A stretch of DNA of 47,592 nt from Candidatus Moranbacteria bacterium RIFCSPHIGHO2_01_FULL_54_31. Lineage in GTDB: Bacteria; Patescibacteriota; Minisyncoccia; Moranbacterales; UBA1568. Under the pieces are notes generated by a model, which was given only the letters and a program-made list of their open reading frames with translations, did no database searches and was not told where the DNA came from. Location of the stretch: NCBI GenBank assembly GCA_001784695.1, contig MFRV01000004.1, forward strand, positions 1 to 47,592, given 5' to 3'. How positions within the stretch are numbered: position 1 is the stretch's first letter; each line of letters begins with the position of its first letter. Both the position numbers and the translations under genes were made by a program. This document shows, piece by piece, positions 16,614-47,451 of this stretch.

Positions 16614-16647
16614 TAAATAATCAAATAACCGAAGGAGGTGAATATAT

Positions 16648-17250: not shown

Positions 17251-17258
17251 CACAATGT

Positions 17259-17471: not shown

Positions 17472-17577
17472 CGGGTATTGCCCCGATGTTACCGGCACTG
17501 CGCTCGCCTGCCTGCCGGTAGGCAGGGAAACGAAAGTAAACTTTCGTTTCACTTGCTTCATTTGGTAATAAAACAGT

Positions 17578-19803: not shown

Positions 19804-19817
19804 CCGGGAAGACTTCT

Positions 19818-32858: not shown

Positions 32859-34283
32859 ATGCGATTTTTTTCGAAAAAGAAAATTCTCTCTTTGGCGTCG
32901 GTCGTGTTCGGTGCTCTTTTACTGTCCGGCTGCGGTTTCAAAAGCGCGCCGCCGGAAACGTATCAGGTGAAGCTCGAGATGTGGGGGATATTCGATGACA
33001 GCGATGCCTACACGGAGGTTTTCAATGAATACCGGAGGCTCAATCCCTATGTCGGCGAGATCGTTTATCGCAAGCTGCCGATAGAGACATATAAGGAAGA
33101 CCTTCTGAACGCGCTCGCGGCCGGCAAGGGGCCGGATATCTTTATGATCCGCAATGCGTGGCGTGGCGCGTTCGAAGACAAGATCGCTCCGGCACCGGAC
33201 ACGATGGTGACCGAGAAGCAATACCGGGATGCGTTCGTCGATGTCGTGGCGTCCGATTTCATCGGTACGGAGAACAAGATCTACGGCGTGCCGCTGTCCG
33301 CGGATTCATTGGCCCTCTATTACAACAAGGATCTCTTCAATGCGGCCGGTATTGCAGAGCCGCCCGCGACCTGGGAGGAGCTGCTCGACGACCTGCACAA
33401 GCTCAACCGTATCGATCAGTTCGGCAATCTCACTCAGTCCGCCGCGGCGCTCGGTACGGCCTACAATATCAATCGTTCCACGGACATCCTGACGGCGCTC
33501 TTGCTGCAGATGGGGTCGGGTATCGGGCAAGCAGGACAAGGGCGCGCCGATTTCACCGATAGGAACAGCACCAGAGCCCTGGAGTTCTATACCCAGTTTG
33601 CGAACATCGGTTCCGGGTTCTATTCCTGGAATCCGCGCCTGCACTATTCTATCGATGCGTTCTATGAAGGTACGCTTGGGATGATGGTGAATTATTCCTG
33701 GCAGTATGCGACGATCAAGCAGAAGAATGCCAAGCTCAATTTCGGCGTAGCGCCTCTGCCGCAGTTTGCCGGCTCCGCGCCGGTGAATGTCGCCAATTAT
33801 TGGGGCTTCGCCGTCGCGAAGAATAAGGCCACCGAAGATCCGGCTGCGTCGGCAGGGCAGACGGCGACTGTGGCAGCCGATCCGGTGAAGCAGAATACGC
33901 TCCGCGTGCACGAAGCCTGGCAGCTGCTCAGTTACCTGGCGTTCCCGCATCCGAGAAACACGATCACGCTGGTGAATGGTCTCGCGGGCACTTCCAAGGA
34001 TTTCCCTCTCAGTTTCGATCCGACGAAGAAATATCTCGACAAGACGAGCAAGCCGGCCGCGCGCCGCGACCTGATCGAGGCGCAGAAGAGCGATGTGAGG
34101 CTGGCGCCTTTTGCGGCGGGCAATCTCATCGCGCGCAACTGGTATCAGGGCAATCCGGAGGGAGTCGAGACGATTTTCGCGGAAGCGATCAACGCGGTAA
34201 ATACCGGAGAAAAAAGCGCGTATGATGCCCTGATGACAGCGGAAAACCGTGTCAATGTGCTCGACCGCGGAGCTCCTCGTTGA
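32859..34283 (+). CDS. ABC transporter extracellular solute-binding lipoprotein (family 1, sugar-type)
   Basis: Lipobox LLLSGCG. Length and motifs (GKGPDIFMI, ALYYNKDLF, PATWEEL) are typical of SBP_bac_1. No permease or ATPase genes are adjacent. Confidence 0.8.
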   Translation: MRFFSKKKILSLASVVFGALLLSGCGFKSAPPETYQVKLEMWGIFDDSDAYTEVFNEYRRLNPYVGEIVYRKLPIETYKEDLLNALAAGKGPDIFMIRNAWRGAFEDKIAPAPDTMVTEKQYRDAFVDVVASDFIGTENKIYGVPLSADSLALYYNKDLFNAAGIAEPPATWEELLDDLHKLNRIDQFGNLTQSAAALGTAYNINRSTDILTALLLQMGSGIGQAGQGRADFTDRNSTRALEFYTQFANIGSGFYSWNPRLHYSIDAFYEGTLGMMVNYSWQYATIKQKNAKLNFGVAPLPQFAGSAPVNVANYWGFAVAKNKATEDPAASAGQTATVAADPVKQNTLRVHEAWQLLSYLAFPHPRNTITLVNGLAGTSKDFPLSFDPTKKYLDKTSKPAARRDLIEAQKSDVRLAPFAAGNLIARNWYQGNPEGVETIFAEAINAVNTGEKSAYDALMTAENRVNVLDRGAPR

Positions 34284-34300
34284 CCCTGCTTCGTGCAAGA

Positions 34301-34329
34301 TTGACAAAGCCGCGCCGATGAGGTACAGT
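34301..34329 (+). promoter_or_regulatory. Promoter TTGACA-17-TACAGT upstream of typA
   Basis: TTGACA 34301-34306 and TACAGT 34324-34329. Confidence 0.45.
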
Positions 34330-34387
34330 GCAGAAGCATTCCAAGGCGTTGAGACGCCTTTTTTCAATGATACAATTTTTTGTCCGT

Positions 34388-36175
34388 ATGGAAATCAGAA
34401 ACATCGCCATTATCGCGCACGTTGACCACGGCAAGACGACCTTGACGGATGCTTTGATGCGCCAGACAGGGATGGTGGCCGCTGATGGGGCATCGATGGA
34501 CTCCAACGCCCTCGAACTCGAGCGCGGCATTACGATCTATGCCAAGAACGCCTCCTTGTTCTGGAAAGAGACGAAAATCAACATCGTCGATACCCCCGGA
34601 CACGCTGATTTCGGCTCGGAAGTGGAGCGCGTCCTGCGTTCGATCGATAGCGTCGTGCTGGTCGTCGATGCGCAGGAGGGTCCGATGCCCCAGACGCGTT
34701 TCGTCCTGAAGAAGTCTCTCGAACTCGGCCTGAAACCGATCGTAGTGTTGAACAAGATCGACAAGCCGGCCGCCCGCCCGAAGGAAGTGGAAGAGATGGT
34801 CTACGAGCTGTTCCTGGATCTGGGTGCCAGCGATGAGCAGCTGGATTTCAAAGTCGTCTATGCGATCGCCCGCGAAGGCATCGCCAAGCTTGCTCTCGCA
34901 GATGAAAGCAAAGACCTCTCGCCGCTTCTCGATACGATCCTGGAGCGCGTACCGGTCGCCAAGAATGATACCGAGAGCCCGCTTCGCGCGCAGCCGTTCA
35001 ATCTCGGCTATGATAATTTCGTCGGACGGATGGCCATCGCTCGCGTGTATGAGGGGAAGCTCAAGGTGAATGACACGGTCATTATGCGCAACATCGATGG
35101 TAAGAACGAGACCGGCCGCGTCGTCAAGCTTTTCACCTTCCGCGGTTTGGAGCGCGTGGAAGCCGCTCACGTCGAGGCGGGGGATATCGTGATGATCGCC
35201 GGACTGACGACGATCGATATCGGCGATACGATCTGCGCCACTCCCGAACAGGAGCTTCTGCCCGCGATTGCGATCGATGAGCCGACGATTTCTCTCGAGT
35301 TTGTCGTGAATGATTCTCCGTTTGCCGGCCGCGAGGGCAAGTACGTGACGAACAAGCAGCTTCGCGAGCGTCTGCAGAAAGAACTGGAAATCAACGTCGG
35401 CTTGAAGATCGATTTTTCCGATGATCATTATAAGGTCTATGGCCGCGGCGAGCTGCATGTGGCGATTCTGCTCGAGAATATGCGCCGCGAAGGCTACGAG
35501 GTCCAGGTGTCGCAGCCGCAGGTTATCATCAAGGAGATCGACGGCGTGAAATCCGAGCCGTTCGAAGAAGTGACGGTCGAATGCCCGATGGAAGTGTCCG
35601 GTACCGTCATCGAGAAGATGGGCAAGCGCAAGGGCATTATGATGGAAATGAAAGAGGGTTCCGGCGGCTACACGCGGCTTATCTTCGAAGTGCCGACTCG
35701 GGGGCTGCTCGGCTATCGTGGCGAGTTTATGGTGGATACGCGCGGCGAAGGGACGCTCTATACGCGCGTGATCGGCTTCCGCCCCTATGTCGGTGAGATC
35801 AGGAAGCGCGATGCCGGATCGATGGTGTCGATGGCGACGGGCAAGGCGCTCGCGTTCTCGCTCAACAATCTCCAGGAACGCGGGACGCTCTATATCGCTC
35901 CGAGCACCGAAGTCTATGAGGGGATGGTCGTGGGCAACGTGACCAAGGGTACCGATATGGCCGTCAATCCGATCAAGGGCAAGGCGATGAGCAATATGCG
36001 CTCCTCCGGCGCCGATGAAGCGATCAAGCTGGTCCCGCCACTCGAGATCTCTATCGAACGCGGGCTGGAAATAATGCTTGGCGACGAATATCTGGAAATC
36101 ACTCCGCACAATGTCCGCCTGCGCAAGCAGTTCCTGACAGAAACCGACCGGACCCGCGCGGGACGCAAGAAATGA
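34388..36175 (+). CDS. typA: Translational GTPase TypA/BipA
   Basis: [33 protein letters not shown], and EF-G-like domains. ATG 34388 follows a TTGACA-17-TACAGT promoter at 34301-34329. Confidence 0.9.
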   Translation: MEIRNIAIIAHVDHGKTTLTDALMRQTGMVAADGASMDSNALELERGITIYAKNASLFWKETKINIVDTPGHADFGSEVERVLRSIDSVVLVVDAQEGPMPQTRFVLKKSLELGLKPIVVLNKIDKPAARPKEVEEMVYELFLDLGASDEQLDFKVVYAIAREGIAKLALADESKDLSPLLDTILERVPVAKNDTESPLRAQPFNLGYDNFVGRMAIARVYEGKLKVNDTVIMRNIDGKNETGRVVKLFTFRGLERVEAAHVEAGDIVMIAGLTTIDIGDTICATPEQELLPAIAIDEPTISLEFVVNDSPFAGREGKYVTNKQLRERLQKELEINVGLKIDFSDDHYKVYGRGELHVAILLENMRREGYEVQVSQPQVIIKEIDGVKSEPFEEVTVECPMEVSGTVIEKMGKRKGIMMEMKEGSGGYTRLIFEVPTRGLLGYRGEFMVDTRGEGTLYTRVIGFRPYVGEIRKRDAGSMVSMATGKALAFSLNNLQERGTLYIAPSTEVYEGMVVGNVTKGTDMAVNPIKGKAMSNMRSSGADEAIKLVPPLEISIERGLEIMLGDEYLEITPHNVRLRKQFLTETDRTRAGRKK

Positions 36176-37862: not shown

Positions 37863-38046
37863 CTTGTGAGGCAAGCGGAAATGAGAGAAGCGTTTTCTGA
37901 AGCTCTGTATACATAATGCCGCGCGGCCGATCATCTGTCTGATCGAGCGTGTCCCGCTCCCGCGCACTTGTCGAGCGAAGTCCGCTATACGGGCGATTAT
38001 CCATGCTAGGCGGCGGTTTTTCTGCATAAAGCTTTCTTTGCGTTCA

Positions 38047-39858
38047 TTATTTCTCCACTTTGACGACCTTCACGAAGTTCCCGGGCCGGTCATCGATCAG
38101 GAGCTGCCAGGCAGGATGCGGCGCGCCGTAATATCTGTACGCTGTGAGACCGGAGAGCCGCTCCCAGCGATCGGCGCGCGACATATAGCGCATCTGGCCG
38201 CGGCGGGTGAGGACGTAGTAGTCCGGCTGCACGAGGGCGGGATCGAAAGTGTAGGCAGAGAGGCAGCGGCCCACGAAAAATTCGCAGACCCCGTAATAGT
38301 CTATCCAGACGGTGAGGCGTTCGGCATCGGGCAGGCTGTTCAGGTATTGCGCCGCCTCGTAGCCGCCATAGCCCCAGGCATCATTGATGAGTGCGGATTT
38401 CGGCAGGAGGCTATTCGTATAATTGAAATAGAACGGCTGTATGGCGTATAGGCTCGCGAGCGATCCGAAGAATATGACGAGCGTGGCAGCGAGTTTCGCA
38501 TATGGCCAAGAAAATCGTTCCGTGATCTGCCAGACACCGCGCGCGGCGAGGAACGCGAAGAGCGGATAGAGGAGGATGCTGTAGCGCGGCGTCGCGAGGA
38601 CATTGGAAGAGATGAGGAGCACGGAGTAGACAAGGAAGAAAAAAAGGAGCGCATAGGCGAGAAAGGCATACTTCTTCTCTCTCGTGCCGAGAAAAGCGGC
38701 GAGCCCGAGCAGGACGATGGGCGTGAGCGAGAAGACAATCGGGTTCCATTCGAGGAGGAAGACTTCGAAGAAGTTCGGGATGTCGGTATGATAGCGGGCG
38801 TCGCTTATGTCCTTGATATCGAATGGTATCCGCGTGAAGATGTCCCAGTCGGGAAAGAAATTGCGGACGATGATCAGTGCTGCGAAGAGCGCGAGGAAGA
38901 AGAGCGGGAGGGCGCGCCGGGCGGGTGCGGCACGGAGACCGATCCGCCGCACTGTGAAGAGCAGTTTATTTTTCAATACGAAGAGATCAATGAGGAGGGG
39001 GACGAAGAGCCCGAGACCGATAGCAGCGAGCGCTTCTTTATCAGGCACGGTTTGGATGAGTTCGACGATGTATTTGGAGTCGAGAAAGAGCGCTGGTAGG
39101 AAGAGGAACAAGAGCACAACGGACGCGGCAGCGATACCTACGAGCCTGGAGAGGTCTTTTTTGAGGTGCTGCGTGAGCGATGCTGCGTCTGGCTCTTCCT
39201 CTGTGAGGAAGCGGAGCAGCGCGAGCGTCAGATAGAATGGCAAGAGAATGAAAGCGACGTATTTCGTGAGGAGCGCGAAGCCGGTGAAGAGTATGGTGAG
39301 CCAGAGATATTTTCTTTCCCCGGATGCGAGCAGCGCGAAGTACGAGAAGAGTGCTGCCGCCCCCAGCGACCAGAGGAGCGCGTCCGGATTGACGATCTGC
39401 GAGATGCCGAGGAGTATCGGGGAGAGCGCGGCGAGCATCACGGTCCAGAGCGCGATCCAGGGGTTCGTGAGCCGCCCGACGATCCAGAAGAGATATAGCA
39501 GCAACAGAGCATTCATCAGAAGAATAGGCAGACGGAACGCGCGGTACAGCGGCTCGGTGTTGCCGGTGTCGTAGATGAGCACCCGATCATAATTTTCGTA
39601 GAGGTGTTTTTTCGGGTGCGGCTCGAAAAGGAGTCCGATGCCCGAGGTCAGCGCAAGCGTGATGCCGGGCTTGTCATTGATGAAGGTCTTCTTCCATTTT
39701 CCGTTCGCCACGGCATCCCAGTACTGCGGGATGCGCTCATAGACCCAGTAGTGCTCGTCGGCGGTGACGAACTGGGTGAGGTGGCGCAGGCCGAAGAAAA
39801 AATAGCCCGCAAACACGAGACCGAGGAAGATGTATCTGATGCCGGTGGATGAGAACAT
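38047..39858 (-). CDS. Glycosyltransferase family 39 (ArnT/PMT-like) polytopic membrane protein
   Basis: 603 aa with more than 10 TM helices. The N-terminal loop has the DEHYW acidic motif, and the C-terminal soluble domain follows the PMT_2/ArnT layout. Confidence 0.6.
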   Translation of the reverse strand: MFSSTGIRYIFLGLVFAGYFFFGLRHLTQFVTADEHYWVYERIPQYWDAVANGKWKKTFINDKPGITLALTSGIGLLFEPHPKKHLYENYDRVLIYDTGNTEPLYRAFRLPILLMNALLLLYLFWIVGRLTNPWIALWTVMLAALSPILLGISQIVNPDALLWSLGAAALFSYFALLASGERKYLWLTILFTGFALLTKYVAFILLPFYLTLALLRFLTEEEPDAASLTQHLKKDLSRLVGIAAASVVLLFLFLPALFLDSKYIVELIQTVPDKEALAAIGLGLFVPLLIDLFVLKNKLLFTVRRIGLRAAPARRALPLFFLALFAALIIVRNFFPDWDIFTRIPFDIKDISDARYHTDIPNFFEVFLLEWNPIVFSLTPIVLLGLAAFLGTREKKYAFLAYALLFFFLVYSVLLISSNVLATPRYSILLYPLFAFLAARGVWQITERFSWPYAKLAATLVIFFGSLASLYAIQPFYFNYTNSLLPKSALINDAWGYGGYEAAQYLNSLPDAERLTVWIDYYGVCEFFVGRCLSAYTFDPALVQPDYYVLTRRGQMRYMSRADRWERLSGLTAYRYYGAPHPAWQLLIDDRPGNFVKVVKVEK

Positions 39859-39922
39859 AGGGTTTCTTTAGCATACCAGCTGTGGTACTATTATGACAAA
39901 CAAAGCCCTGAAGATTACCCGT

Positions 39923-40585
39923 ATGTCATATTTCTTCGCACGTTTCTTTCTTTCCCTCTTTTTCGTATTTTCATTGTTGTCCGCCGCGCTCCCGCTTTCT
40001 GCGGATGCGGCGCTGGTTCCCTGCGGGCGCTCATCCGGCACCGTCGCCGAGCAAGCGCCCTGCACTATCTGTCACGTCGTCATCGGCGGCCAAGGGCTGA
40101 TCGACTACGGTTTGAGAATTATGACTTTCGCGGCGATCGCGGTGATCGTCGCGATGGCTATCTTCTACATCGTTTCTACGGGCGATGAAGGGATGATGCA
40201 GACGGCGAAGAGCGGCATCAAGGCGGCACTGATCGGTTTCGCGGTGATGCTCGCCGCTTGGCTCATCGTCAACATCGTGCTCACCGTTCTGGTCAATACG
40301 GAGTTTCTGAACGGTATCAAGAAAGATGGTGCATTTACTTTTTCCTGTGATCCCAATTCTTCTTCCGCCGGTACCGCGACGGGAACTACACAGCAGCAGA
40401 CTGGAGGTGCTTCACCAGCTAACAATACAAGCGCTACTGGTACTACTGTAAGTACTGAAGGCGCGCCTTGTAGCGGACAGGATATTGACGGGGCTGTGAA
40501 ATCTGGCACGTGTAGATACACATCGTTTTGCACAGCGCTCACAGGCGCGACAGCGTGCGCTTCTGGTCAAAAGTGTTGTCTTTGA
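39923..40585 (+). CDS. TrbC/VirB2-like two-helix pilin, paralog 1, with a Thr/Gly-rich linker and a C-terminal 6-Cys module
   Basis: Signal peptide MSYFFARFFLSLFFVFSLLSAALPLSADA. Core FAAIAVIVAMAIFYIVSTGDEGMMQTAKSGIKAALIGFAVMLAAWLIV. ATG 39923 is preferred because a TGGTACTAT extended -10 sits at 39883-39891, overlapping the 39893 ATG region. Confidence 0.65.
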   Translation: MSYFFARFFLSLFFVFSLLSAALPLSADAALVPCGRSSGTVAEQAPCTICHVVIGGQGLIDYGLRIMTFAAIAVIVAMAIFYIVSTGDEGMMQTAKSGIKAALIGFAVMLAAWLIVNIVLTVLVNTEFLNGIKKDGAFTFSCDPNSSSAGTATGTTQQQTGGASPANNTSATGTTVSTEGAPCSGQDIDGAVKSGTCRYTSFCTALTGATACASGQKCCL

Positions 40586-40669
40586 GAGAGGTAGGTTTCG
40601 TTATATGGTGATGGTGGCGATCAGTGCGCGGTGCATTTCGGTGTCAATTGCGAAGTACGCTCAAAAAAT

Positions 40670-40954
40670 ATGCACACTTTTTCCCTTATCGATACGGTGC
40701 TGGCTGCCGGCGTGATCACCGATGCTACGCCGATTGCGGAGATACTCTCGAACGTATTGCAATTTTTGTTGTCAATCGTCGGGATACTTGGTATAATCGG
40801 GCTAGTAGTTTCCGGGGCGCTGTATTTTTTCGCGACCGGGGACAATAGGCAGATCGCGGTAGCCAAGCGTGCGGCACTCGCATCGGTGATCGGCATCGTC
40901 ATCGCGCTCGGAGCGTATATACTTATAACTCAGATAGCGAGCTTTTTCTCATAA
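40670..40954 (+). CDS. TrbC/VirB2-like two-helix pilin, paralog 2 (minimal)
   Basis: Core LLSIVGILGIIGLVVSGALYFFATGDNRQIAVAKRAALASVIGIVIALGAYILI. ATG 40670 (MHTFSLID) is preferred to 40631. Confidence 0.65.
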   Translation: MHTFSLIDTVLAAGVITDATPIAEILSNVLQFLLSIVGILGIIGLVVSGALYFFATGDNRQIAVAKRAALASVIGIVIALGAYILITQIASFFS

Positions 40955-41033
40955 CACAAAGGAAAGCATAAAAAATCAAAACGTTCGCGGCCGTTGTCCG
41001 GCAGGCTGAACACACTGAAAGGAGGTGAGAAGT

Positions 41034-41402
41034 ATGAAACAAATCAAACAAGCGGTATACGGAGCATTTGCTCTCGCTCTCGCGACTGCACCGGCAATAG
41101 TCGGAGCTCAGTGGTATCAGGGCAAGACTAACGCCGCTCAGTCCGGGTTGCCGGAGGACAGCATCTACAATATCATTTCCCGCACGATGAACTGGCTTTT
41201 GGCCATTCTCGGTTTTATCGGCATTATCGGTTTCGTGATTGCCGGTATTCTCTATCTCACCGCCGCTGGCGATGAAGGACAGATCGAGAAAGCCAAGAAC
41301 GCTATGATGTATTCCATCATCGGTATCATCGTCGCTCTCATCGGCTTCGTCATTATCCAAGCCGTAGAAGGCTGGCTGACATCCGGATCGACTCAGTTCT
41401 AG
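41034..41402 (+). CDS. TrbC/VirB2-like two-helix pilin, paralog 3
   Basis: GGAGGTGA RBS precedes ATG 41034. Signal peptide. Core LLAILGFIGIIGFVIAGILYLTAAGDEGQIEKAKNAMMYSIIGIIVALIGFVII. Confidence 0.7.
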   Translation: MKQIKQAVYGAFALALATAPAIVGAQWYQGKTNAAQSGLPEDSIYNIISRTMNWLLAILGFIGIIGFVIAGILYLTAAGDEGQIEKAKNAMMYSIIGIIVALIGFVIIQAVEGWLTSGSTQF

Positions 41403-41427
41403 TGTTTCTCGGATCACAGGAGGAAAG

Positions 41428-41456
41428 CCATCTTTCGCAAGGAGGGTGGTTTTTTC
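41428..41456 (+). terminator. Possible terminator after pilin paralog 3
   Basis: CCATCTT...AGGGTGG stem with two G-U pairs, followed by TTTTTT. Confidence 0.45.
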
Positions 41457-41615
41457 TATAACAAAAAAAGCGGACCCGTCCGCATCCCGCTTTGGCTGGA
41501 AGAGTTTCGCGCAAGCCTGCCCGAAAAGCTGGGTTCAATGTCGCTTGGCGTGGTTGTTTTTTTGTCCCGAAAAGAGTAGTATGGAGGAAGAAGAGACTCT
41601 TGTTGAAACAAAAAT

Positions 41616-42197
41616 ATGCGCCTACTCTCTCTCAGCAGCATTCTTTTTTTCGGGGCGCTTTTTCTGTTTCCGGGATACGTTTCCGCAGATACCGCCGGTT
41701 TTTCCTGTGTCGGAAGCAATGGTCAGACCGGTACCTGTATGTTCGGTGCGATAAATTGCAGCGCTACGCCGCTCGCATCGGCCAGCTGCGATGCCGGACA
41801 AATATGCTGTCCTACGGGATCGAGCAACACGAACACAAATACCAATACACAAACGAACGCGAATCCGACCTCTGGTTCCAGTATCCCAGTCTCTTGTCCC
41901 AACGGGACTATAAAAGGAGGGGTGTGTTTTCCTGCCGGGACAGGGCTGTCCAGTATGCCGATTGCGGATCTCCTGATGAGAATTATGGATTGGCTCTTGG
42001 GTATTTTCGGCTTCCTCGCTATCATCGCTTTCGTCATTTCCGGCTTCCAGTATCTCCTGTCAGCGGGCGATGAGGGGACGGCCGAAACTGCCAAGCGCAA
42101 TATGCAGTACGCGGCTATCGGCATCCTGGTCGCGCTCTCCGGCTGGGTGATCATTATGGCGATCGATCAGGCGCTCTCCGGCAATCCGTTTTTCTAG
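41616..42197 (+). CDS. TrbC/VirB2-like two-helix pilin, paralog 4, with an N-terminal 6-Cys module and an Asn/Thr linker
   Basis: Signal peptide, Cys module (41706-41810), NTNTNTNTQTN linker, second Cys pair, core LLGIFGFLAIIAFVISGFQYLLSAGDEGTAETAKRNMQYAAIGILVALSGWVII. Confidence 0.7.
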   Translation: MRLLSLSSILFFGALFLFPGYVSADTAGFSCVGSNGQTGTCMFGAINCSATPLASASCDAGQICCPTGSSNTNTNTNTQTNANPTSGSSIPVSCPNGTIKGGVCFPAGTGLSSMPIADLLMRIMDWLLGIFGFLAIIAFVISGFQYLLSAGDEGTAETAKRNMQYAAIGILVALSGWVIIMAIDQALSGNPFF

Positions 42198-42225
42198 GAT
42201 TTTAGTTTCCATATAACGCGTCATT

Positions 42226-42927
42226 ATGTATAAGAATATCATGCCACTGCTTTTCCTCGGACTGATGGTCAGTGTATTTTTTATGACCACCCCAATCGCT
42301 ATGGGACAGCCTGCTCCAGCCCCAGGTGGTGGCGCTATCCAGCCTAGCGGGACCGCCGGCACCGGCGCTATCCAGCCTAGCGGGACTCCTGCTGCCTCGG
42401 CTCCTCAGACTATCACCTTCACCAACCCTCTACGATTCCAGACGGTGGAAGAGGTGCTTGGCAGCCTCCTCAGTACGCTTCGCGGCATCATCGTCATCCT
42501 CTCTCTCGTCTTCATCGTCATCGGGGCGATACTCTACATCACGTCATCCGGCGATGAGGGCCGGATGAAGGTCGCGAAGGGCGCTATCACCGCCGCGATG
42601 ATAGGTCTCGCCATCGGCCTCGCCGCGCCGTCGTTCTTGAAAGAGATAGGTACTGTCCTCGGCTGGGGCGCGGTCAATAACGCCGAGGTAGCAGCAGCCC
42701 TCACCCTCTCCCAGATCGCGCGCAATGTGCTCGATTTCCTCCTCTCCATCGTCGGCATCCTCGCCATCATTATGCTGGTCGTCGGAGGCATTATGTACCT
42801 GACAGCCGCGGGCAACGAGGATCAGATTGATACCGGCAAGAAAATAGTGAAGTGGTCCATCGTCGGTATCGCCGTCGCACTGGCATCGCTCGTCATCGTG
42901 AGCCAGATCGCCGCGCTTTTCGTGTAG
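42226..42927 (+). CDS. Tandem double TrbC/VirB2-like pilin, paralog 5 (two pilin modules in one ORF)
   Basis: Signal peptide and a Pro/Gly repeat (GAIQPSGT twice). Module a: IIVILSLVFIVIGAILYITSSGDEGRMKVAKGAITAAMIGLAIGLA. Module b: LLSIVGILAIIMLVVGGIMYLTAAGNEDQIDTGKKIVKWSIVGIAVALASLVIV. Confidence 0.7.
   Translation: MYKNIMPLLFLGLMVSVFFMTTPIAMGQPAPAPGGGAIQPSGTAGTGAIQPSGTPAASAPQTITFTNPLRFQTVEEVLGSLLSTLRGIIVILSLVFIVIGAILYITSSGDEGRMKVAKGAITAAMIGLAIGLAAPSFLKEIGTVLGWGAVNNAEVAAALTLSQIARNVLDFLLSIVGILAIIMLVVGGIMYLTAAGNEDQIDTGKKIVKWSIVGIAVALASLVIVSQIAALFV
42331..42386 (+). repeat. Perfect 23-nt direct repeat with 33-nt period inside pilin paralog 5
   Basis: GGCGCTATCCAGCCTAGCGGGAC at 42331-42353 and 42364-42386, encoding GAIQPSGT twice. 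Confidence 0.8.
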
Positions 42928-42940
42928 CATACAAATCAGG

Positions 42941-42990
42941 CAAAAAGAAAACGGACAGCACAAGTGTTACTTGCTGTCCGTTGTTGTTTG
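42941..42990. terminator. Bidirectional terminator between the pilin array and the SPFH operon
   Basis: 11-bp perfect stem AACGGACAGCA / TGCTGTCCGTT (42950-42982), flanked by an A-rich 5' side and a T-rich 3' side. Confidence 0.6.
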
Positions 42991-43003: not shown

Positions 43004-43750
43004 TCAGCCGCACTTCTTCACGGTGATATGGAGCGTCCCTTCTCCCCCATAATTTATTTCAGTAGGGAAGTTATTCACATCCATATCAATGTCAGTTTTC
43101 CCATTCGCGATGAAGGCATGCTTCGTTCCGGCGAAAATGGGCTGGCCATTGATGTGGAGGATGAAAGCCCCGTATGGTTTGTCAGGAAACAGATTCGGAT
43201 AAACCAAGGGGATACCCTGGTGTTCCAAGTCCGGACCCGCGAGCCATACTGTCCCATCTGGACGTGTGCCATCAGCGCGAATAACCTGATTGAAAATGGA
43301 ATGGGCATCGGTGGTATGGAAGTGATTCTGGGTTCTTTGCCCAGATGCTTCTATGATGTAGCGGCCCGGATCCGTGAAATGGAGAGTCACCAATGCCTGT
43401 CGCCCTTTCGACGGTTCAAAATCCGTTTCGTGGAGGATGAGGCATTGTGCCGGTGACCTGAAGGTCAACCAAGCGATACATACGCCGATGAGAATGACTG
43501 CTGCCCAGCATAGCTTGCCCCACAGCTTGGACTCTTTTGGAGTCTTGGTCTGCGAGGCTGGAGCAGCGGATGTAGCGGATGTGACAGAAGAATTCTGTCG
43601 GCTATTCCACTTTTCTATCGCCCAGATGCTATACTGTTTCCAGAGAAAGACGAGGAAGCCGATGATGAGGCCGATAATTGCGCCCCACCAAAACTGTCCT
43701 GTCAGCGCTCCCGCGATGAACGAGAGTCCTAGAATAATGCCGTAGATCAT
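43004..43750 (-). CDS. Membrane protein partner of the SPFH gene, with a C-terminal beta-rich (possibly PA-IL/LecA-like) domain
   Basis: The start overlaps the SPFH stop by ATGA (43747-43750). Two or three TM helices and a Ser-rich linker. The C-terminal YGAFILHINGQPIFAGTK...DMDVNNFPTEINYGGEGTLHITV resembles the PA-IL lectin sequence pattern by eye only. Confidence 0.55.
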   Translation of the reverse strand: MIYGIILGLSFIAGALTGQFWWGAIIGLIIGFLVFLWKQYSIWAIEKWNSRQNSSVTSATSAAPASQTKTPKESKLWGKLCWAAVILIGVCIAWLTFRSPAQCLILHETDFEPSKGRQALVTLHFTDPGRYIIEASGQRTQNHFHTTDAHSIFNQVIRADGTRPDGTVWLAGPDLEHQGIPLVYPNLFPDKPYGAFILHINGQPIFAGTKHAFIANGKTDIDMDVNNFPTEINYGGEGTLHITVKKCG

Positions 43751-44874
43751 GATGCGTTCCTCCTTCGCGGTGTCAAGGGACCCTTACTTGGTCTTTCAGA
43801 TACTTTTTCCGACGAAGCTTGCGCGACGGCTGCCGCGGGCTCTTGCACGGGAGTATCCGATGCAGGGCTGGCAGGCGGTGTTGGCGAGGGAGGTTGATTT
43901 CCGCCATCGAGGACACCTTTGACCATTCCTGCCATACTGGCTAGCTGGCTCAACATCCCGCTTTCGCTTGTGGCGATGACGGTGGTTGACGTTTTCGCGA
44001 GAGCCTTTGTGGACCCTTGGGCGAGCACGTACGCTGCAGCATTTGCAGGATCAAGCCCGGCACCTGCTACAGCTTTGATCCGGGCAAACTCACCTTCACC
44101 AGCAAGCGAAGCTGCCTGCTTTTCGCCCTCGGCTATCGTTATTTCCGCAGTCTTTTGACTTTCTGCCCCGATGATCAGGACTTGCGCATCCGTCGTCGCC
44201 GCGAGCCGGCGCAGACGAATGGCGGACTCCTTTTCAGCCAGAATGAACTCGATGATGTCCACGGTAATAATTTTGACACCCCACCCTGCGAACATGGCAT
44301 GCAGTGTCTTATTTCCCATAACCTTCTTTTCTACAATAGTCTTCATTTTGTCTGTATTGGCTACGTTGAAATCGTATGATCCGAACAAACTCCGAAACTC
44401 TGCTTCGAGCTTGTTCAGCGTCGCCCGTTCGTAACCCTTGAGGACAATAGAGATTGATTGACCCGATTCGTTAGTAGACTTGAGCTGCAGATCCGTCTCT
44501 TCCACCGCGTAGGTGGCCAGGAGAGGATTTATGACTTGGTAGATGACCTGAATCAGGGCGCCTGCCTGCATATCCGCGAAGTCAATAGGATCCGGCCTGC
44601 CTACTCCCTTGCCCTCGCCCATTCCCATATGGATCGTGATCGGCTTTTCGGCTACGTTCAGTCGGTTTCGGACAAACATAATTGGTTTAATCGGAAACCA
44701 GAGAATATGGAGACCAGGTTCCCATGGATAAGCTATTGTTGGTATTCCTGGGAAGAGGTTAATTTCGATTACCCAGTTATCGGGTTTGTGAGTCCACTTG
44801 ATTGCTAGGGAGAGGTAGAGGACCAGGATTCCGATCACCACTTCCCAAAATGCTGGAGAGAGAAAAAAATTCAT
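43747..44874 (-). CDS. SPFH/Band-7 (stomatin-prohibitin-flotillin-HflK/C) domain protein
   Basis: GGAG RBS. N-terminal TM and an SPFH core, followed by the coiled Ala/Glu-rich region IAEGEKQAASLAGEGEFARIKA typical of the family. Pro/Ser-rich tail. Confidence 0.75.
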   Translation of the reverse strand: MNFFLSPAFWEVVIGILVLYLSLAIKWTHKPDNWVIEINLFPGIPTIAYPWEPGLHILWFPIKPIMFVRNRLNVAEKPITIHMGMGEGKGVGRPDPIDFADMQAGALIQVIYQVINPLLATYAVEETDLQLKSTNESGQSISIVLKGYERATLNKLEAEFRSLFGSYDFNVANTDKMKTIVEKKVMGNKTLHAMFAGWGVKIITVDIIEFILAEKESAIRLRRLAATTDAQVLIIGAESQKTAEITIAEGEKQAASLAGEGEFARIKAVAGAGLDPANAAAYVLAQGSTKALAKTSTTVIATSESGMLSQLASMAGMVKGVLDGGNQPPSPTPPASPASDTPVQEPAAAVAQASSEKVSERPSKGPLTPRRRNAS

Positions 44875-45201: not shown

Positions 45202-45840
45202 TTAACGAAAGTAGAGATAACCCAAAAAGAGCCAAACTGTTTCAACGACACTGGCGGCAAGGACGTCTTGGAAAATAGGCGGGTAAATTTCGCCATCCAA
45301 TTTTTTCCTAAGACAGAGACTGCCAACATTATCGCATTGCCGAGAATACATATCCGGCAGAGAGACGAGAGTCTCTTCACCTATTCCCACTGTTTCACTG
45401 GAAGCGGTTTGTAAAGAATACGCACGCCAGGTAGGGAAAAAGAAGAGCGCTATTACAAAAGGAATAAAAAGTATAAAGAGAATCATTCCAAAGATAGCAA
45501 GTATCATGAACCCCCAATCAGATGAATCGCTCGAACTTGAAGATGGCACTCCTGAATATCCACCACTAGAAGAACTGGTCTCTCTTTTCTTGGATTCTGA
45601 ACCCCAGAAGATTCCATGGTGAGAATGTTCCACATCACCAGTTTCCGTATTCACGCGCGTTATATTGTCGTTACCATCACGCTTGTCATCCCAAAGAATG
45701 CCCCAACCAGATTCTTCGACGGCACCGCTATCGGTATTGACTCTTGTCATCTGATTGTTGTCATCGCGTTTTGGATCCCAACAAATACCCCAGTCTGACT
45801 CTTCAATAATGCCAGTATCCTTGTTGATCCTTGTAGTCAT
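45202..45840 (-). CDS. Hypothetical membrane protein with three N-terminal ~27-aa repeats
   Basis: GAGGAG RBS. Repeats TRINKDTGIIEESDWGICWDPKRDDNNQM / TRVNTDSGAVEESGWGILWDDKRDGNDNI / TRVNTETGDVEHSHHGIFWGSESKKRE, then a poly-Ser linker, then a long TM segment. A strong terminator follows. Confidence 0.55.
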   Translation of the reverse strand: MTTRINKDTGIIEESDWGICWDPKRDDNNQMTRVNTDSGAVEESGWGILWDDKRDGNDNITRVNTETGDVEHSHHGIFWGSESKKRETSSSSGGYSGVPSSSSSDSSDWGFMILAIFGMILFILFIPFVIALFFFPTWRAYSLQTASSETVGIGEETLVSLPDMYSRQCDNVGSLCLRKKLDGEIYPPIFQDVLAASVVETVWLFLGYLYFR

Positions 45841-46089: not shown

Positions 46090-47451
46090 ATGGCAAAGAA
46101 GAAAATCGTCGCCGATGAAGCGGCAGCCGAAGACGGCAGCCTCTCGGGGCGTCTGGGCGAATTCGGCAGCGCGGTGATGCAGATCGCCGAAGAGAAGGGC
46201 ATCTCCAAGGAGCGCGTGCTCGAAGTCGTCGAAGCGGCACTTGCGGCTGCTTATAAAAAAGACTATGGCAAGAAAGGCCAGGTCATCCGCGCCGGCTTCG
46301 ATGAGGTGCAGAAGAGCGCGAGCTTTTTCCTCGTGAAAGAAGTCGTCGATGAGACGACACGCGAGTTCGTGGAGGCAAGCGATGAAGAGGCTGAAGAAGC
46401 AAGCGAGGCCAAAGAAGCGAGCGCACCCGAGGAAATCGACGATGACCGCCTGCCGCGTTTCAATCCGGAGCGCGATATGCTCCTTGCGGAAGCCAAGAAA
46501 TTGAAAAAGGGCATCAAGCTCGGCGAGACGATAGAATTGCCCCTCGAATCGCACGATGAGTTCGGCCGCGTGGCTGCTCAGACTGCCAAGCAGGTGATCA
46601 TCCAGCGTATCCGCGAAGCCGAACGCGAGACGATGTTCGAAGAATACAAGGAGAAGGAAGGCCAGGTCGTGAACGGCATCGTGCAGCGCGTCGAAGGGCG
46701 CAACGTGTTCGTCGATCTCGGCAAATCCATCGGCATCCTGTTCCCTTCCGAGCAGATCGAGGGGGAGAATTACCGTGTCGGCCAGCACCTGAAAGTGTTC
46801 CTCGTGCGCGTCGAATCGGATACCAAGGGACCGGGGCTGCTCCTCTCCCGCACGCATCCTGAGATGGTGCGCCACCTCTTCTCGCTCGAAGTGCCGGAAA
46901 TTTTCACCGGTACCGTAGAGATCAAGGCGATCGCCCGCGAGGCCGGTTCCCGCACGAAGATCGCCGTGTTCTCGGCGGAAGAAGGCGTCGACCCGATCGG
47001 CTCATGCGTCGGACAGAAGGGGACGCGCGTGCAGGCCATCATCGATGAGCTCGGCGGCGAGAAGATCGATATCATCGAATGGAATGAGAGCGAGGAGAAG
47101 TTCATCAGCGCCGCGCTATCGCCGGCCAAGGTGCTTTCCGTCCAGCTGTTCGAGGAAGAGAAGCGCGCCGTGGTCACGGTGCCGCAGGACCAGCTGTCGC
47201 TCGCTATCGGCAAACGCGGACAGAACGTGCGTTTGGCCGCGAAGCTTGCCGGCTGGAAGATCGACGTGACGAGCGAGGAAACAGTAGAGAATCAGGAATC
47301 AGGAATTGAGAATCAGGAAGAAGAAACTCCGGCAGCGCAAGAAAGCGTTGTTCTGGAAGCAGAAGCTGCGGAAGCATCAGAAAGCCTGAAGCCAGAAATA
47401 GAGAGCAAGAATCAAGACGAGGGAAATCAGGAAGCCGGAGAGGTAAAATAA
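46090..47451 (+). CDS. nusA: Transcription termination/antitermination factor NusA with an acidic insert and an acidic C-terminal tail
   Basis: S1 domain ([22 protein letters not shown]) and two KH domains ([17 protein letters not shown]; [25 protein letters not shown]). The tail is [13 protein letters not shown]. Confidence 0.9.
47287..47320 (+). repeat. AATCAGG-type heptamer array inside the nusA 3' coding region
   Basis: AATCAGG AATCAGG AATTGAG AATCAGG (47290-47317). Hand alignment gives 25 of 28 identical to the reverse complement of 27938-27966. Confidence 0.6.

What the first reader, a model, noticed from the sequence alone, without database searches (positions are those of the whole stretch)
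39883..42990. Tandem array of five TrbC/VirB2-like pilin genes (six pilin modules) with no secretion machinery in view
Five consecutive plus-strand ORFs share one core. The core is a hydrophobic helix ending in Y-[ILF]-x-[STA]-[STA]-G-[DN]-[EN], a short charged loop containing A/G-K, and a second hydrophobic helix. The six loop motifs are YIVSTGDEG..TAK, YFFATGDNR..VAK, YLTAAGDEG..KAK, YLLSAGDEG..TAK, YITSSGDEG..VAK and YLTAAGNED..TGK. This helix-loop-helix layout matches conjugative/T4SS pilins (TrbC/VirB2), a family reported as very abundant in CPR genomes whose function there is unknown.

The paralogs differ mainly in what is attached to the core:
- Paralog 2 has nothing attached.
- Paralog 3 has a short extension.
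- Paralog 1 carries a C-terminal Cys module.
- Paralog 4 carries an N-terminal Cys module.
- Paralog 5 is a full tandem duplication.

That pattern looks like a diversified surface-fibre or adhesin toolkit. No VirB4, VirB6, VirD4 or relaxase gene is present in the window. The flanks are a GT39 glycosyltransferase on one side and an SPFH operon on the other.
Basis: partly seen in the sequence, partly recalled or inferred. Interest (0 to 1): 0.78.

Follow-up and report, generated by a model that had tools for sequence, protein, structure and literature searches.

The report
Conserved type IV secretion pilin operon
Five neighbouring genes in an ultrasmall (Moranbacteria, candidate phyla radiation) bacterium encode the pilin-like subunits of its type IV secretion system; such arrays were already described in 2025, and this is an ordinary but well-conserved example whose secretion motor is encoded elsewhere.

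Summary
Five plus-strand genes (39893-42927) carry six helix-loop-helix modules, and all five proteins pass the Pfam gathering score of PF18895 (T4SS_pilin).

The kind is already published. Quinonero-Coronel et al. 2025 report 441 VirB2-like arrays of 2-11 genes in Patescibacteria, and Wang et al. 2023 showed that such an array is essential in a Saccharibacterium.

Comparison with 80 Moranbacteria species changes the reading:
- The array is not a freely diversifying toolkit. It is an ancient, ordered operon of five orthologous classes (P1-P2-P3-P4-double P5) in a conserved housekeeping locus: methyltransferase, solute-binding protein, (BipA), array, Band_7 pair, nusA.
- In ten species the P1 and P5 classes lie directly upstream of prgI (VirB3-like) and virB4.
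- One 304-kb contig carries both a virB4-attached P1+P5 locus and a nusA-attached P2-P4 locus.
- The motor is absent from the window and is presumably encoded elsewhere in the genome.
- The P3 class looks like the major subunit, with a strong ribosome-binding site and a downstream hairpin.
- The P1 class is a pilin-like anchor that elsewhere carries a lytic transglycosylase.
- The cysteine module is a pilin-specific six-Cys decoration on termini predicted to lie outside the cell.

Verdict: a new member of a known kind, of moderate interest.

The parts
39893..40585 (+). P1 class. Layout: signal peptide (predicted cut ...SADA|ALVPCG), conserved Cys/CxxC segment, pilin hairpin (aa ~68-139), conserved FSC motif, S/T/G-rich linker, C-terminal six-Cys module. 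An alternative start is Met11 at 39923.
   Evidence: PF18895 27.9 bits; hydropathy. Orthologues keep A-L-V-P-C-G...C-T-x-C-H and F-[ST]-F-[ST]-C-D and carry variable C-terminal domains: none, SLT, Cys modules, peptidase.
40469..40579 (+). Six-Cys module of P1 (aa 193-229): C-x13-C-x5-C-x8-C-x5-CC.
   Evidence: BLASTP to the P4 module gives E=0.007 with the Cys aligned. It aligns with 39 other modules with six invariant Cys.
40670..40954 (+). P2 class: bare 94-aa pilin (the ORF is open from GTG 40631) with a short conserved leader M...AAGVITDATP.
   Evidence: PF18895 36.8 bits and TrbC/VirB2 PF04956 29.9 bits, both above cut-off. The orthologue N-termini fix the start. It is called as 94 aa in public assemblies.
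41019..41028 (+). Shine-Dalgarno AAGGAGGTGA, 5 nt upstream of the P3 ATG (41034). It is the only strong SD in the array.
   Evidence: P3-class genes carry a strong SD plus an in-frame start in 54% of cases, against 0-10% for the other classes.
41034..41402 (+). P3 class: 122-aa pilin (ORF open from GTG 41025) made of a signal peptide, a short N-terminal segment and the hairpin. It is the probable major subunit.
   Evidence: PF18895 50.9 bits. Orthologues reach 90% identity and the class is often present in 2-5 copies. SD and downstream hairpin statistics support high expression.
41422..41457 (+). Terminator-like hairpin plus U tract about 20 nt after the P3 stop, in the 213-nt P3-P4 spacer.
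   Evidence: -13.4 kcal/mol. A comparable hairpin plus U tract follows 49% of P3-class genes, against 0-8% of P1, P2 and P4 genes, across about 80 species. The whole spacer does not fold better than shuffles (z=-0.37).
41616..42197 (+). P4 class. Layout: signal peptide, N-terminal six-Cys module, T/N/S-rich linker, conserved C94-x9-C104-F-P-x3-G-L-S loop, pilin hairpin (aa 115-187).
   Evidence: PF18895 41.5 bits. A 193-aa homologue at 96% identity exists, and many homologues carry 1-4 modules (regex counts). A3 shows invariant C94, G102, P106. AF2 gives helices 116-149 and 156-187. Public gene calls truncate it to 80 aa.
41706..41810 (+). Six-Cys module of P4 (aa 31-65): C-x9-C-x6-C-x9-C-x5-CC.
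   Evidence: No Pfam family matches it. A profile search of 1.84 billion representative proteins finds 15 hits; of the 12 whose family content was checked, 8 are PF18895 pilins.
42226..42927 (+). P5 class, a fused double pilin. Layout: signal peptide, P/G/A-rich repeat, hairpin a (aa 74-145), hairpin b (aa 161-232).
   Evidence: PF18895 78 bits with two stretches. AF2 pLDDT is 77.7 with four long helices. There are 724 homologues, the best 120 of them 56-91% identical. It is the last gene of the array in most of the 80 loci and lies directly upstream of prgI-virB4 in 10 species.
38047..39858 (-). Divergent PMT_2/PMT (GT-C) glycosyltransferase. It is a possible modifier of the S/T-rich pilin linkers; this is inference only.
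   Evidence: PF13231 41.6 bits, PF02366 23.0 bits. A homologue sits in the same position in 4 of 80 related loci.
43004..44874 (-). Convergent gene pair (248 aa and 375 aa). They are divergent orthologues of the Band_7 (SPFH) gene and its partner that follow the array in relatives.
   Evidence: No direct Pfam hit. Profile matches to positional orthologues give E=1.9e-9 and 1e-7. Relatives L010 and L012 carry Band_7 there.
32105..36175 (+). Conserved upstream synteny block: methyltransferase (32105-32719), orphan SBP_bac_1 (32859-34283), BipA (34328-36175).
   Evidence: SBP is upstream of the array in 54 of 80 related loci, the methyltransferase in 51 and BipA in 30.
46090..47451 (+). nusA, the conserved downstream anchor of the locus.
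   Evidence: nusA follows the array in 43 of 80 loci and in L005, L007, L009, L010 and L012.

Best explanation
The five genes are the chromosomal pilin operon of the Patescibacteria-type (monoderm, MPF-FATA-related) type IV secretion system of a Moranbacteria-lineage bacterium.

Shown:
- All five proteins are PF18895 family members.
- They belong to five ancient orthologous classes kept in the same order across the order.
- Two of the classes (P1 and the fused double pilin P5) are contiguous with prgI/virB3 and virB4 in sister species.

Inferred mechanism:
1. Each protein is inserted by Sec as an N-out, loop-in, C-out helical hairpin.
2. A VirB4-driven machine encoded elsewhere in the genome extracts the proteins from the membrane.
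3. The machine assembles them into a surface filament or conduit through the cell wall.
4. P3 is the abundant major subunit.
5. P2, P4 and P5 are less abundant specialised subunits.
6. P1 is a pilin-like anchor presenting an extracellular domain. That domain is a lytic transglycosylase in many species and a six-Cys module here.
7. The six-Cys modules and S/T/G/P-rich linkers sit on the termini that would face outward. There they could act in contact with a host cell, and they may be glycosylated by the neighbouring PMT-type transferase.
For: Family and topology:
- Family membership is shown.
- Hairpin topology and signal peptides come; helices.
- The AxA|ALVPCG cut site is conserved in P1 orthologues.

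Organism: hits are named 'pilin [Candidatus Moraniibacteriota]' and 80 related loci are almost all Moranbacteria MAGs.

Ordered orthologous classes:
- The per-locus class order is P1|P2|P3(x1-5)|P4|P5.
- Reciprocal best hits are collinear in 19/19 and 56/60 loci, with median identity 49-68%. Window paralogues are 22-39% identical to module 1.

Link to the machine:
- Ten loci read MTase-SBP-P1-P5-PrgI (PF12666, 39 bits)-TraC-like N domain-VirB4 ATPase (PF19044, 109 bits).
- The same 304,559-bp contig holds that locus and a separate P2-P3-P3-P4 array upstream of nusA.
- Moranbacteria VirB4 is highly conserved, at 74-91% identity among the top 120 hits.

P1 as an anchor for wall-active domains: SLT PF01464 scores 23-58 bits (cut-off 21.3) in six P1-class orthologues.

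P3 as the major subunit:
- A strong SD occurs in 54% of P3 genes against 0-10% of the others.
- A hairpin plus U tract follows 49% of P3 genes against 0-8% of the others.
- Both features are present in the window.

Literature:
- VirB2-like arrays are common in Patescibacteria, and the pilin gene was near virB4 in only 1135 of 1948 assemblies (PMC12102498).
- The pilin series is essential in S. epibionticum (PMC10633639).
Against: - No VirB4, VirB6 or PrgI is in the window, and the rest of this genome could not be searched.
- No T4SS pilus has been observed in any Patescibacterium. Reviews call it a possibility (PMC12857230).
- Sequence-profile searches find no solved VirB2/TraA-type pilin.
- Foldseek on the models gives nothing significant. 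The tie to experimentally characterised pilins therefore rests on Pfam HMMs alone. Only P2 passes the TrbC/VirB2 model.
- The major/minor assignment rests on sequence signals, not on expression data.
- The P3-P4 spacer as a whole does not fold better than shuffled sequence.
- The glycosylation idea rests only on adjacency, which is seen in 4 of 80 related loci.
Confidence: 0.62

Rival explanations
1. The proteins are T4SS-associated but do not polymerise. They remain integral membrane hairpins that form part of the translocation channel or stalk. Alternatively they simply anchor extracellular domains (wall hydrolase, Cys modules, adhesin-like repeats) at the cell surface next to the machine.
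For: - P1-class orthologues are fusions to SLT, subtilase, InlB B-repeat and Ig-like domains, which is what a membrane anchor would carry.
- T4SSs of Gram-positive bacteria normally lack pili, and no Patescibacteria T4SS pilus has been seen.
- The closest NCBIfam model is a 'pilin-like conjugal transfer protein' of wall-less Mycoplasma ICEs, below its cut-off.
- No similarity to solved pilus subunits was detected.
Against: - All five are members of the pilin family PF18895, and P2 is also a member of TrbC/VirB2.
- A class with a strong SD and a terminator-like hairpin (P3) suits a bulk structural subunit.
- Five to nine hairpin paralogues per locus are many for channel parts.
Confidence: 0.22
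2. The array is a variation cassette of interchangeable major pilins, as proposed for Bartonella and Anaplasma VirB2 paralogues and suggested for Patescibacteria. It would let the cell change surface properties or adapt to different host strains.
For: - The paralogues are divergent, at 22-39% identity.
- Decorations vary between species: Cys-module number and position, and linker repeats.
- The published discussion favours this idea.
Against: - The classes are orthologous and collinear across dozens of species, and each has class-specific conserved features. They are old and non-redundant rather than recently diversified.
- No repeats or recombination signals were looked for, so nothing here supports switching. 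The repeat finder was not run on this region.
Confidence: 0.1
3. The genes are a decaying remnant of an integrated conjugative element and no longer function.
For: No relaxase, coupling protein or VirB4 lies nearby.
Against: - All ORFs are intact.
- The locus lies between housekeeping genes and is syntenic in at least 50 species.
- Orthologues reach 90% identity.
- Identical copies were recovered from four independent assemblies.
- No integrase or phage family hit was found.
Confidence: 0.03

Closest known systems
VirB2-like pilin arrays of Patescibacteria: 441 arrays of 2-11 genes in 383 assemblies (Quinonero-Coronel et al. 2025, PMC12102498), and the essential pilin series in the T4SS cluster SEML1_0006-0019 of Southlakia epibionticum ML1 (Wang et al. 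2023, PMC10633639)
   Same: - The same Pfam families were used to define them (PF18895, PF04956).
- The genes are tandem, sequence-divergent paralogues (published average 25%, maximum 54% identity).
- They are chromosomal, with no relaxase.
- The host is a Patescibacterium.
   Different: - Here the array is detached from virB4 and sits in a conserved MTase-SBP-(BipA)-array-Band_7-nusA locus.
- The text of the 2025 paper does not mention ordered orthologous classes, fused double pilins, pilin-SLT fusions, Cys modules or nusA (term search). Its supplementary tables were not read.
VirB2 / TrbC / TraA conjugative pilins of Gram-negative T4SSs (Pfam PF04956)
   Same: - A signal peptide followed by two hydrophobic helices joined by a short charged loop.
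- P2 passes the family's gathering score.
- Dependence on a VirB4 ATPase is expected.
   Different: - The host is a monoderm.
- P4 scores below the cut-off, and P1, P3 and P5 give no TrbC hit at E <= 1.
- No detectable similarity to solved pilus subunits by sequence profile or Foldseek.
- Large N- or C-terminal extracellular extensions and a covalent double hairpin are not typical.
Tandem VirB2 paralogues of Bartonella and Anaplasma T4SSs (as cited in PMC12102498)
   Same: Several divergent pilin genes lie side by side in a non-conjugative, host-interaction T4SS.
   Different: Those are interpreted as antigenic or host-range variants. Here the paralogues are conserved, collinear orthologous classes, which argues for distinct structural roles.
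Mbov_0395 family pilin-like conjugal transfer protein of Mycoplasma ICEs (NCBIfam NF045849)
   Same: It is the best NCBIfam match for all five proteins. It is a small two-helix protein of a T4SS in wall-less or monoderm bacteria.
   Different: All scores are below the 40-bit cut-off (18.7-38.8), so the proteins are not members. There is no ICE context here.
Major/minor pilin operons of type IV pili and chaperone-usher fimbriae (functional analogy only)
   Same: One highly expressed subunit gene is followed by a hairpin, with several low-abundance specialised subunits in fixed order.
   Different: The protein folds and assembly machines are unrelated. The pilins here lack the class III (prepilin peptidase) leader.

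Membership tests
Pfam PF18895 T4SS_pilin | Whole-protein HMM score at or above the gathering score (26.6 bits) | tested here: met
   27.9, 36.8, 50.9, 41.5 and 78.0 bits for P1-P5; P5 matches with two stretches. P1 is only just above the cut-off.
Pfam PF18895 T4SS_pilin | Two hydrophobic helices joined by a short charged loop, preceded by an export signal | tested here: met
   Hydropathy segments. AF2 helices are 74-106/111-145/161-193/198-232 in P5 and 116-149/156-187 in P4. Signal peptides were judged by eye, with no SignalP. P2 has only a short conserved leader.
Pfam PF18895 T4SS_pilin | Genomic association with T4SS core genes (VirB4, PrgI/VirB3, VirB6) | tested here: inconclusive
   Not met inside the window. 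Met for the orthologous P1 and P5 classes in 10 related species and on one contig that also carries a detached array.
TrbC/VirB2 pilin (Pfam PF04956) | HMM score at or above the gathering score (27.9 bits) | tested here: inconclusive
   P2 scores 29.9 (met). P4 scores 19.1 (below). P1, P3 and P5 give no hit at E <= 1.
TrbC/VirB2 pilin (Pfam PF04956) | Similarity to experimentally solved conjugative pilus subunits | tested here: not met
   Profile searches of PDB sequences with A1 and A4 give no true hit; the 'Pizza' designer-repeat matches are artefacts. Foldseek on both models finds nothing at E <= 0.001. Helical hairpins are poorly discriminated by these methods.
TrbC/VirB2 pilin (Pfam PF04956) | Polymerisation into an extracellular pilus with bound phospholipid | not testable with these tools
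   This needs microscopy or biochemistry. No multimer prediction was available.
Patescibacteria VirB2-like pilin array (PMC12102498) | Two or more pilin genes in tandem or separated by one non-pilin gene, with low identity between members | tested here: met
   Five genes, with gaps of 45, 70, 213 and 28 nt measured from the longest ORFs. Module identity to module 1 is 22-39%.
Patescibacteria VirB2-like pilin array (PMC12102498) | Encoded in a Patescibacteria genome | tested here: met
   The closest homologues and 80 related loci are Candidatus Moraniibacteriota/Moranbacteria MAGs. NusA is 65-86% and BipA up to 91% identical to those genomes.
Patescibacteria VirB2-like pilin array (PMC12102498) | VirB4 present in the same assembly | not testable with these tools
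   Only 47.6 kb of this genome is available. The other public contigs carrying the array are 41 kb or shorter and cover the same region.
Conjugative element (ICE/plasmid) T4SS | Relaxase, coupling protein and integrase or replication genes nearby | tested here: not met
   No such Pfam hits among the large ORFs of the window. The context is DnaG, RpoD, IF-2, BipA, NusA and tRNAs.
Type IV pilus (T4P) pilins | Class III leader (G|F/M-x-x-x-E) and a single N-terminal hydrophobic helix | tested here: not met
   The N-termini read have ordinary AxA-type signal peptides and two helices. No T4P Pfam family matches.

The most novel reading that the evidence does not exclude
Moranbacteria build a heteropolymeric type IV secretion filament from five ancient, non-interchangeable pilin classes. 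These would be:
- a highly expressed major subunit (P3);
- a bare TrbC-like subunit (P2);
- a covalently fused pilin dimer that is ancestrally linked to prgI-virB4 (P5);
- a pilin-tethered cell-wall hydrolase or display class (P1);
- a class carrying a pilin-specific six-Cys module on the filament's outer face (P4).

That would be a T4SS pilus with major/minor-subunit logic, so far known only from unrelated pilus systems. The Cys-module and linker decorations would set host-cell specificity.
Probability: 0.3. Interest if true: 0.7.

Novelty: new member of a known kind. Interest (0 to 1): 0.4.

Why it matters
The role of the type IV secretion system and its pilin arrays in Patescibacteria is an open question. 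They are essential in the one species tested, yet no pilus and no substrate is known.

This locus adds no new kind of system. The comparison made here does give testable structure to the problem for one large lineage:
- a fixed set of five pilin classes;
- a candidate major subunit;
- a universal fused double pilin next to prgI-virB4;
- pilin-lytic-transglycosylase fusions;
- a pilin-specific disulfide module.

These are concrete targets for proteomics, cryo-ET and multimer modelling.

Tried and rejected
- Foldseek of the AF2 models of P5 and P4 against the PDB gave only generic helical bundles, none at E <= 0.001.
- PDB sequence-profile searches with the six-module alignment and with 29 P2-class orthologues gave no hit, or artefactual summed hits to designed 'Pizza' repeat proteins.
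- The AF2 model of the P4 Cys module had pLDDT 40-56 and was unusable, so no fold was assigned.
- The six-Cys spacing recalls the beta-defensin framework. This is from memory only; no Pfam defensin model matched, so no claim is made.
- The sigma-70 promoter and terminator consensus scan of the array was no better than shuffles. The P3-P4 spacer as a whole folds no better than shuffles.
- PHROGs gave no phage or holin family for the five proteins, apart from one weak hit of P5 (E=6e-4) to a family of unknown function, so the holin idea was dropped.
- A direct Pfam search of the two downstream genes for Band_7 failed. Only a profile of positional orthologues connects them.
- I tried to find the VirB4 of this very genome.
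- The 857-aa TPR membrane protein upstream of arrays in 12 loci was scanned as a possible glycosyltransferase or O-antigen-ligase-like enzyme. Only TPR repeats were found.

Full report
**1. The observation**

The interval 39883-42990 holds five consecutive plus-strand ORFs:
- P1: 39893-40585, 230 aa.
- P2: 40631-40954, 107 aa from GTG.
- P3: 41025-41402, 125 aa from GTG.
- P4: 41616-42197, 193 aa.
- P5: 42226-42927, 233 aa.

The six modules align without a single gap and share an invariant Tyr at the end of helix 1, a Gly in the loop and a Lys before helix 2. Identity to module 1 is 22-39%.

All five proteins reach the curated Pfam cut-off of PF18895 'T4SS_pilin' (26.6 bits): 27.9, 36.8, 50.9, 41.5 and 78.0 bits. 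P5 matches twice. P2 also passes TrbC/VirB2 PF04956 (29.9 vs 27.9). The best NCBIfam model is the Mycoplasma ICE 'pilin-like conjugal transfer protein' NF045849, always below its cut-off.

Hydropathy gives a signal-peptide-like N-terminus plus two transmembrane helices for P1, P3 and P4, and four for P5. AlphaFold2 places helices at 74-106, 111-145, 161-193 and 198-232 in P5 (pLDDT 77.7). In P4 the helices are at 116-149 and 156-187.

**2. Gene models**

- Orthologue N-termini ('M...AAGVIxDAxP') put the P2 start at ATG 40670, giving 94 aa.
- P3 most likely starts at ATG 41034, 5 nt after AAGGAGGTGA.
- Public assemblies that carry the same contig call P4 as only 80 aa.
- The 193-aa form of P4 has a clean signal peptide. 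It has a 96%-identical full-length homologue. Many homologues also carry the same N-terminal cysteine module in 1-4 copies. The long form is therefore the real one.

**3. The window as a whole**

Pfam scans of all large ORFs show ordinary chromosomal content:
- DnaG, RpoD, four tRNAs, IF-2, CCA-adding enzyme, BipA and NusA;
- a copper-resistance cluster;
- a solute-binding protein;
- a GH28 hydrolase;
- a PMT_2/PMT glycosyltransferase.

There is no VirB4, VirB6, PrgI, VirD4, relaxase or integrase. tblastn with VirB4, its N-domain ORF and PrgI from relatives finds nothing in the window. tblastn with every gene of a relative's T4SS locus finds only IF-2 and DUF4446.

**4. Organism**

- Homologues are named 'pilin [Candidatus Moraniibacteriota/Moranbacteria bacterium]' by NCBI.
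- A scan of one genome per GTDB species with a double-pilin alignment returned 80 loci. Nearly all are Moranbacteria MAGs; some TPA records carry an evidently wrong 'Bdellovibrionales' label.
- NusA is 65-86% and BipA up to 91% identical to these genomes.
- The window's own species was not among the representatives (best P5 identity 65-75%).
- Moraniibacteriota belongs to the Parcubacteria/Patescibacteria group.

**5. What is already known**

Quinonero-Coronel et al. 2025 (PMC12102498) searched 3,035 Patescibacteria genomes with these same Pfam models.
- They report 441 VirB2 arrays of 2-11 genes in 383 assemblies, with average identity 25% and maximum 54%.
- The pilin gene was near virB4 in 1135 of 1948 assemblies.
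- Relaxases are mostly absent.

Wang et al. 2023 (PMC10633639) showed by Tn-seq that the pilin series inside the T4SS cluster of Southlakia epibionticum is essential.

A 2025 review calls a Patescibacteria T4SS pilus an 'intriguing possibility' (PMC12857230). The function of the system is called 'completely unknown' (PMC11665869).

The kind of feature is therefore published. The finding is a further example.

**6. The array is an ordered set of orthologous classes**

I called ORFs in all fetched loci. I searched them with an HMM of the six window modules. Each hit was assigned to its best-matching window module.

Almost every Moranbacteria locus has 4-9 pilin genes in the order P1 | P2 | P3 (1-5 copies) | P4 | P5(double).

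Reciprocal best hits to the window were counted as follows:

| Class | RBHs among 86 loci | Median core identity | Maximum identity |
|---|---|---|---|
| P1 | 48 | 49% | 90% |
| P2 | 39 | 57% | 70% |
| P3 | 64 | 67.5% | 90% |
| P4 | 55 | 58% | 74% |
| P5a | 81 | 67% | 83% |
| P5b | 84 | 68% | 89% |

All 19 loci with six reciprocal best hits are collinear with the window. So are 56 of 60 loci with at least four.

The paralogues are thus much older than the species and are kept in order. This argues against a recently diversified 'toolkit' or an antigenic-variation cassette, and for non-redundant roles.

**7. Conserved location**

| Feature near the array | Loci (of the 80 scanned plus relatives found by identity look-up) |
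|---|---|
| SBP_bac_1 gene upstream | 54 |
| Methyltransferase upstream | 51 |
| BipA upstream | 30 |
| nusA downstream | 43 |

Close relatives show the full pattern. Examples are L010 (GCA_030648835.1, 635-kb contig) and L012. Their order is IF-2(-) ... MTase, SBP, BipA, six pilins ending in the double pilin, two minus-strand genes (one Band_7), NusA, pyrophosphatase, trigger factor, ClpP.

- The window's two minus-strand genes have no Pfam hit. They match profiles built from those positional orthologues at E=1.9e-9 and 1e-7.
- The PMT_2 gene occupies the same position only in four related loci, and GH28 in none. These two genes are a lineage-specific insertion between BipA and the array.

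**8. Where the machinery is**

Clustering of all neighbouring ORFs revealed a 606-aa P-loop protein in nine loci. Its Pfam matches are PF19044 TraG P-loop at 109 bits, AAA_10, DUF87 and a weak CagE_TrbE_VirB hit. It is preceded by a 228-aa ORF annotated PF26593 TraC-like in precomputed data. Before that lies a ~160-aa PrgI family protein (PF12666, 39 bits vs 27).

These loci read MTase, SBP, P1-class pilin, double pilin (P5), PrgI, VirB4-N, VirB4-C. A tenth locus has PrgI and VirB4-N at its edge.

A search with this VirB4 showed that it is very conserved in Moranbacteria, at 74-91% identity among the top 120 hits. One hit lies on the same 304,559-bp JGI contig that carries a detached array:
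- Contig positions 14841-36658 hold MTase-SBP-P1-P5-PrgI-VirB4 (L093).
- Positions 44437-65210 hold four pilins of classes P2, P3, P3 and P4 followed by nusA (L005).

Another contig (L094) shows a fuller T4SS locus: LysM-CHAP hydrolase, TrbL_3/VirB6-like, PrgI, VirB4 and two weak pilin-like genes, ending next to IF-2.

The pilin set therefore occurs as two sub-modules. P1+P5 is T4SS-proximal and P2-P4 is nusA-proximal. In the window's subclade they are joined into one operon while prgI-virB4 lies elsewhere. That this particular genome has virB4 is an inference, because it could not be tested.

**9. Class properties**

*P1 class*
- Every one of 51 members has at least four Cys.
- The orthologues examined share AxA|A-L-V-P-C-G...C-T-x-C-H before helix 1 and F-[ST]-F-[ST]-C-D after helix 2. 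Both segments are predicted to be extracellular.
- The C-terminal extension varies. It can be absent, or an SLT lytic transglycosylase (PF01464, 23-58 bits in six orthologues). One of those six also has a subtilase. Other extensions are InlB B-repeats, an Ig-like domain, or Cys modules as in the window.
- An SLT tethered to a pilin-like hairpin is the VirB1-type function expected for a machine that must cross a cell wall.

*P2 class*: always bare and never carries Cys modules.

*P3 class*
- A strong Shine-Dalgarno with an in-frame start occurs in 54% of 135 genes, against 0-10% in the other classes.
- A hairpin plus U tract within 110 nt downstream occurs in 49%, against 0-8% for P1, P2 and P4 and 39% for the operon-final P5.
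- The window shows both features: AAGGAGGTGA at 41019-41028, and a -13.4 kcal/mol hairpin at about 41422-41457.
- This is the pattern of a major-subunit gene followed by an attenuator. It is an inference from sequence signals.

*P5 class*: a fused double hairpin with 724 homologues, the best 120 of them 56-91% identical. It is the most conserved member.

**10. The cysteine module**

The P1 C-terminus and the P4 N-terminus share one module (BLASTP E=0.007 with the Cys aligned). Forty instances align with six invariant Cys and a near-invariant Gly: C-x7-13-[G-x-C]-x4-6-C-x8-13-C-x3-5-CC.

Across the related loci the module occurs as follows:

| Class and position | Members with the module |
|---|---|
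| P5, N-terminal side | 36/91 |
| P4, N-terminal side | 8/58 |
| P1, either side | 10/51 |
| P3 | 4/135 |
| P2 | 0/44 |

- It has no Pfam family.
- A profile search of 1.84 billion representative proteins found only 15 significant hits. Of the 12 whose family content was checked, 8 are PF18895 pilins.
- AF2 did not give a confident fold for it.
- In the hairpin topology both termini are outside the cytoplasm. A disulfide module on either end is therefore topologically consistent, and in a VirB2-type filament it would lie on the outer face. That placement rests on established knowledge of F and T pili and is not tested here.

**11. Mechanism and rivals**

*Best-supported reading (confidence about 0.6)*: the operon supplies the pilin-class subunits of the chromosomal Patescibacteria T4SS.
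- Shown: family membership, class orthology and order, and physical linkage of the P1 and P5 classes to prgI-virB4 in sister species.
- Inferred: Sec insertion as N-out/C-out hairpins, VirB4-dependent extraction and polymerisation, P3 as major subunit, decorations facing outward, and possible glycosylation of the S/T-rich linkers by the adjacent PMT-type enzyme.

*Main rival (about 0.2)*: the proteins stay in the membrane as channel parts or anchors and no pilus is made. The P1 fusions and the lack of any observed pilus favour this. The many paralogues and the high-expression signature of P3 argue against it.

*Variation cassette (about 0.1)*: weakened by the collinear orthology.

*Decayed mobile-element remnant (about 0.03)*: excluded for practical purposes by intact ORFs, housekeeping synteny and recovery from four assemblies.

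**12. Verdict**

The feature is a new member of a known kind.

As far as the text of the 2025 survey shows, several findings here are incremental additions:
- the five-class architecture;
- the fused double pilin next to prgI-virB4;
- the pilin-SLT fusions;
- the pilin-specific six-Cys module;
- the candidate major subunit.

They make the Patescibacteria T4SS question more testable but do not change its category. Interest 0.4.

Noticed in passing
window 32859-34283 (and L010, L012, L052-L093): An orphan SBP_bac_1 solute-binding protein gene, with no ABC permease nearby, directly precedes the pilin genes in 54 of 80 related loci. This includes the loci where the pilins run into prgI-virB4. The linkage is as conserved as the array itself and is unexplained.
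   Followed up: partly
window 10235-20414: A copper-handling cluster that is sizeable for a small CPR-type genome. It holds a multicopper oxidase, a DsbD_2+cupredoxin+HMA fusion protein, two heavy-metal P-type ATPases, DUF302 and a cupredoxin protein.
   Followed up: no
window 36264-39858 (- strand): GH28 (polygalacturonase-like) and PMT_2 glycosyltransferase genes are inserted between BipA and the pilin operon. GH28 has no counterpart in any of the 80 related loci, and PMT_2 has one in only four. The start of the PMT_2 gene is 34 nt from the P1 start, on the opposite strand.
   Followed up: partly
L058, L067, L093, L094 (e.g. L093 9308-11818): In Moranbacteria VirB4 is encoded as two adjacent ORFs: a ~228-aa TraC-like N-domain and a ~606-aa ATPase. 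The pair is preceded by PrgI, and the ATPase part is 74-91% identical across the lineage.
   Followed up: partly
L001 9730-9972, L002 6415-6657 (= window 41955-42197): Public gene calls for the same contig truncate P4 to 80 aa from an internal Met. This drops its signal peptide and Cys module, so such decorations may be under-counted in surveys based on called proteins.
   Followed up: yes
window 45202-45840 (- strand), low-GC stretch 45-46 kb (GC 0.41): A 212-aa ORF with three repeats of about 30 aa ('TRVNTxxGxVEESxWGIxWD...') and a C-terminal hydrophobic segment. It has no family in Pfam and no counterpart in related loci.
   Followed up: no
window 6943-8352 and 6001-7000: A CHAP + CARDB protein (a possible wall hydrolase) lies next to a low-GC patch (GC 0.39). 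It has no detected similarity to the LysM-CHAP gene of the T4SS locus in L094.
   Followed up: partly
L015, L011/L025, L039, L071: Several Moranbacteria genomes carry a second, solitary double-pilin gene, in some cases 600-840 aa long, in unrelated contexts such as next to dprA/topA. MAGs CAYLJX01 and CAVURJ01 have both an array copy and a solitary copy.
   Followed up: partly
L007 4460-7045, L009 3742-6339, L053 3729-6302: In 12 loci that lack a P1-class gene, an ~860-aa polytopic membrane protein with C-terminal TPR repeats sits upstream of the P2-P4 pilins. Only the TPR part has a Pfam match.
   Followed up: partly
window 1622-4048: The longest DnaG ORF (808 aa from GTG) has about 200 aa ahead of the zinc ribbon and overlaps another ORF (1521-2141). 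The start is probably over-extended.
   Followed up: no
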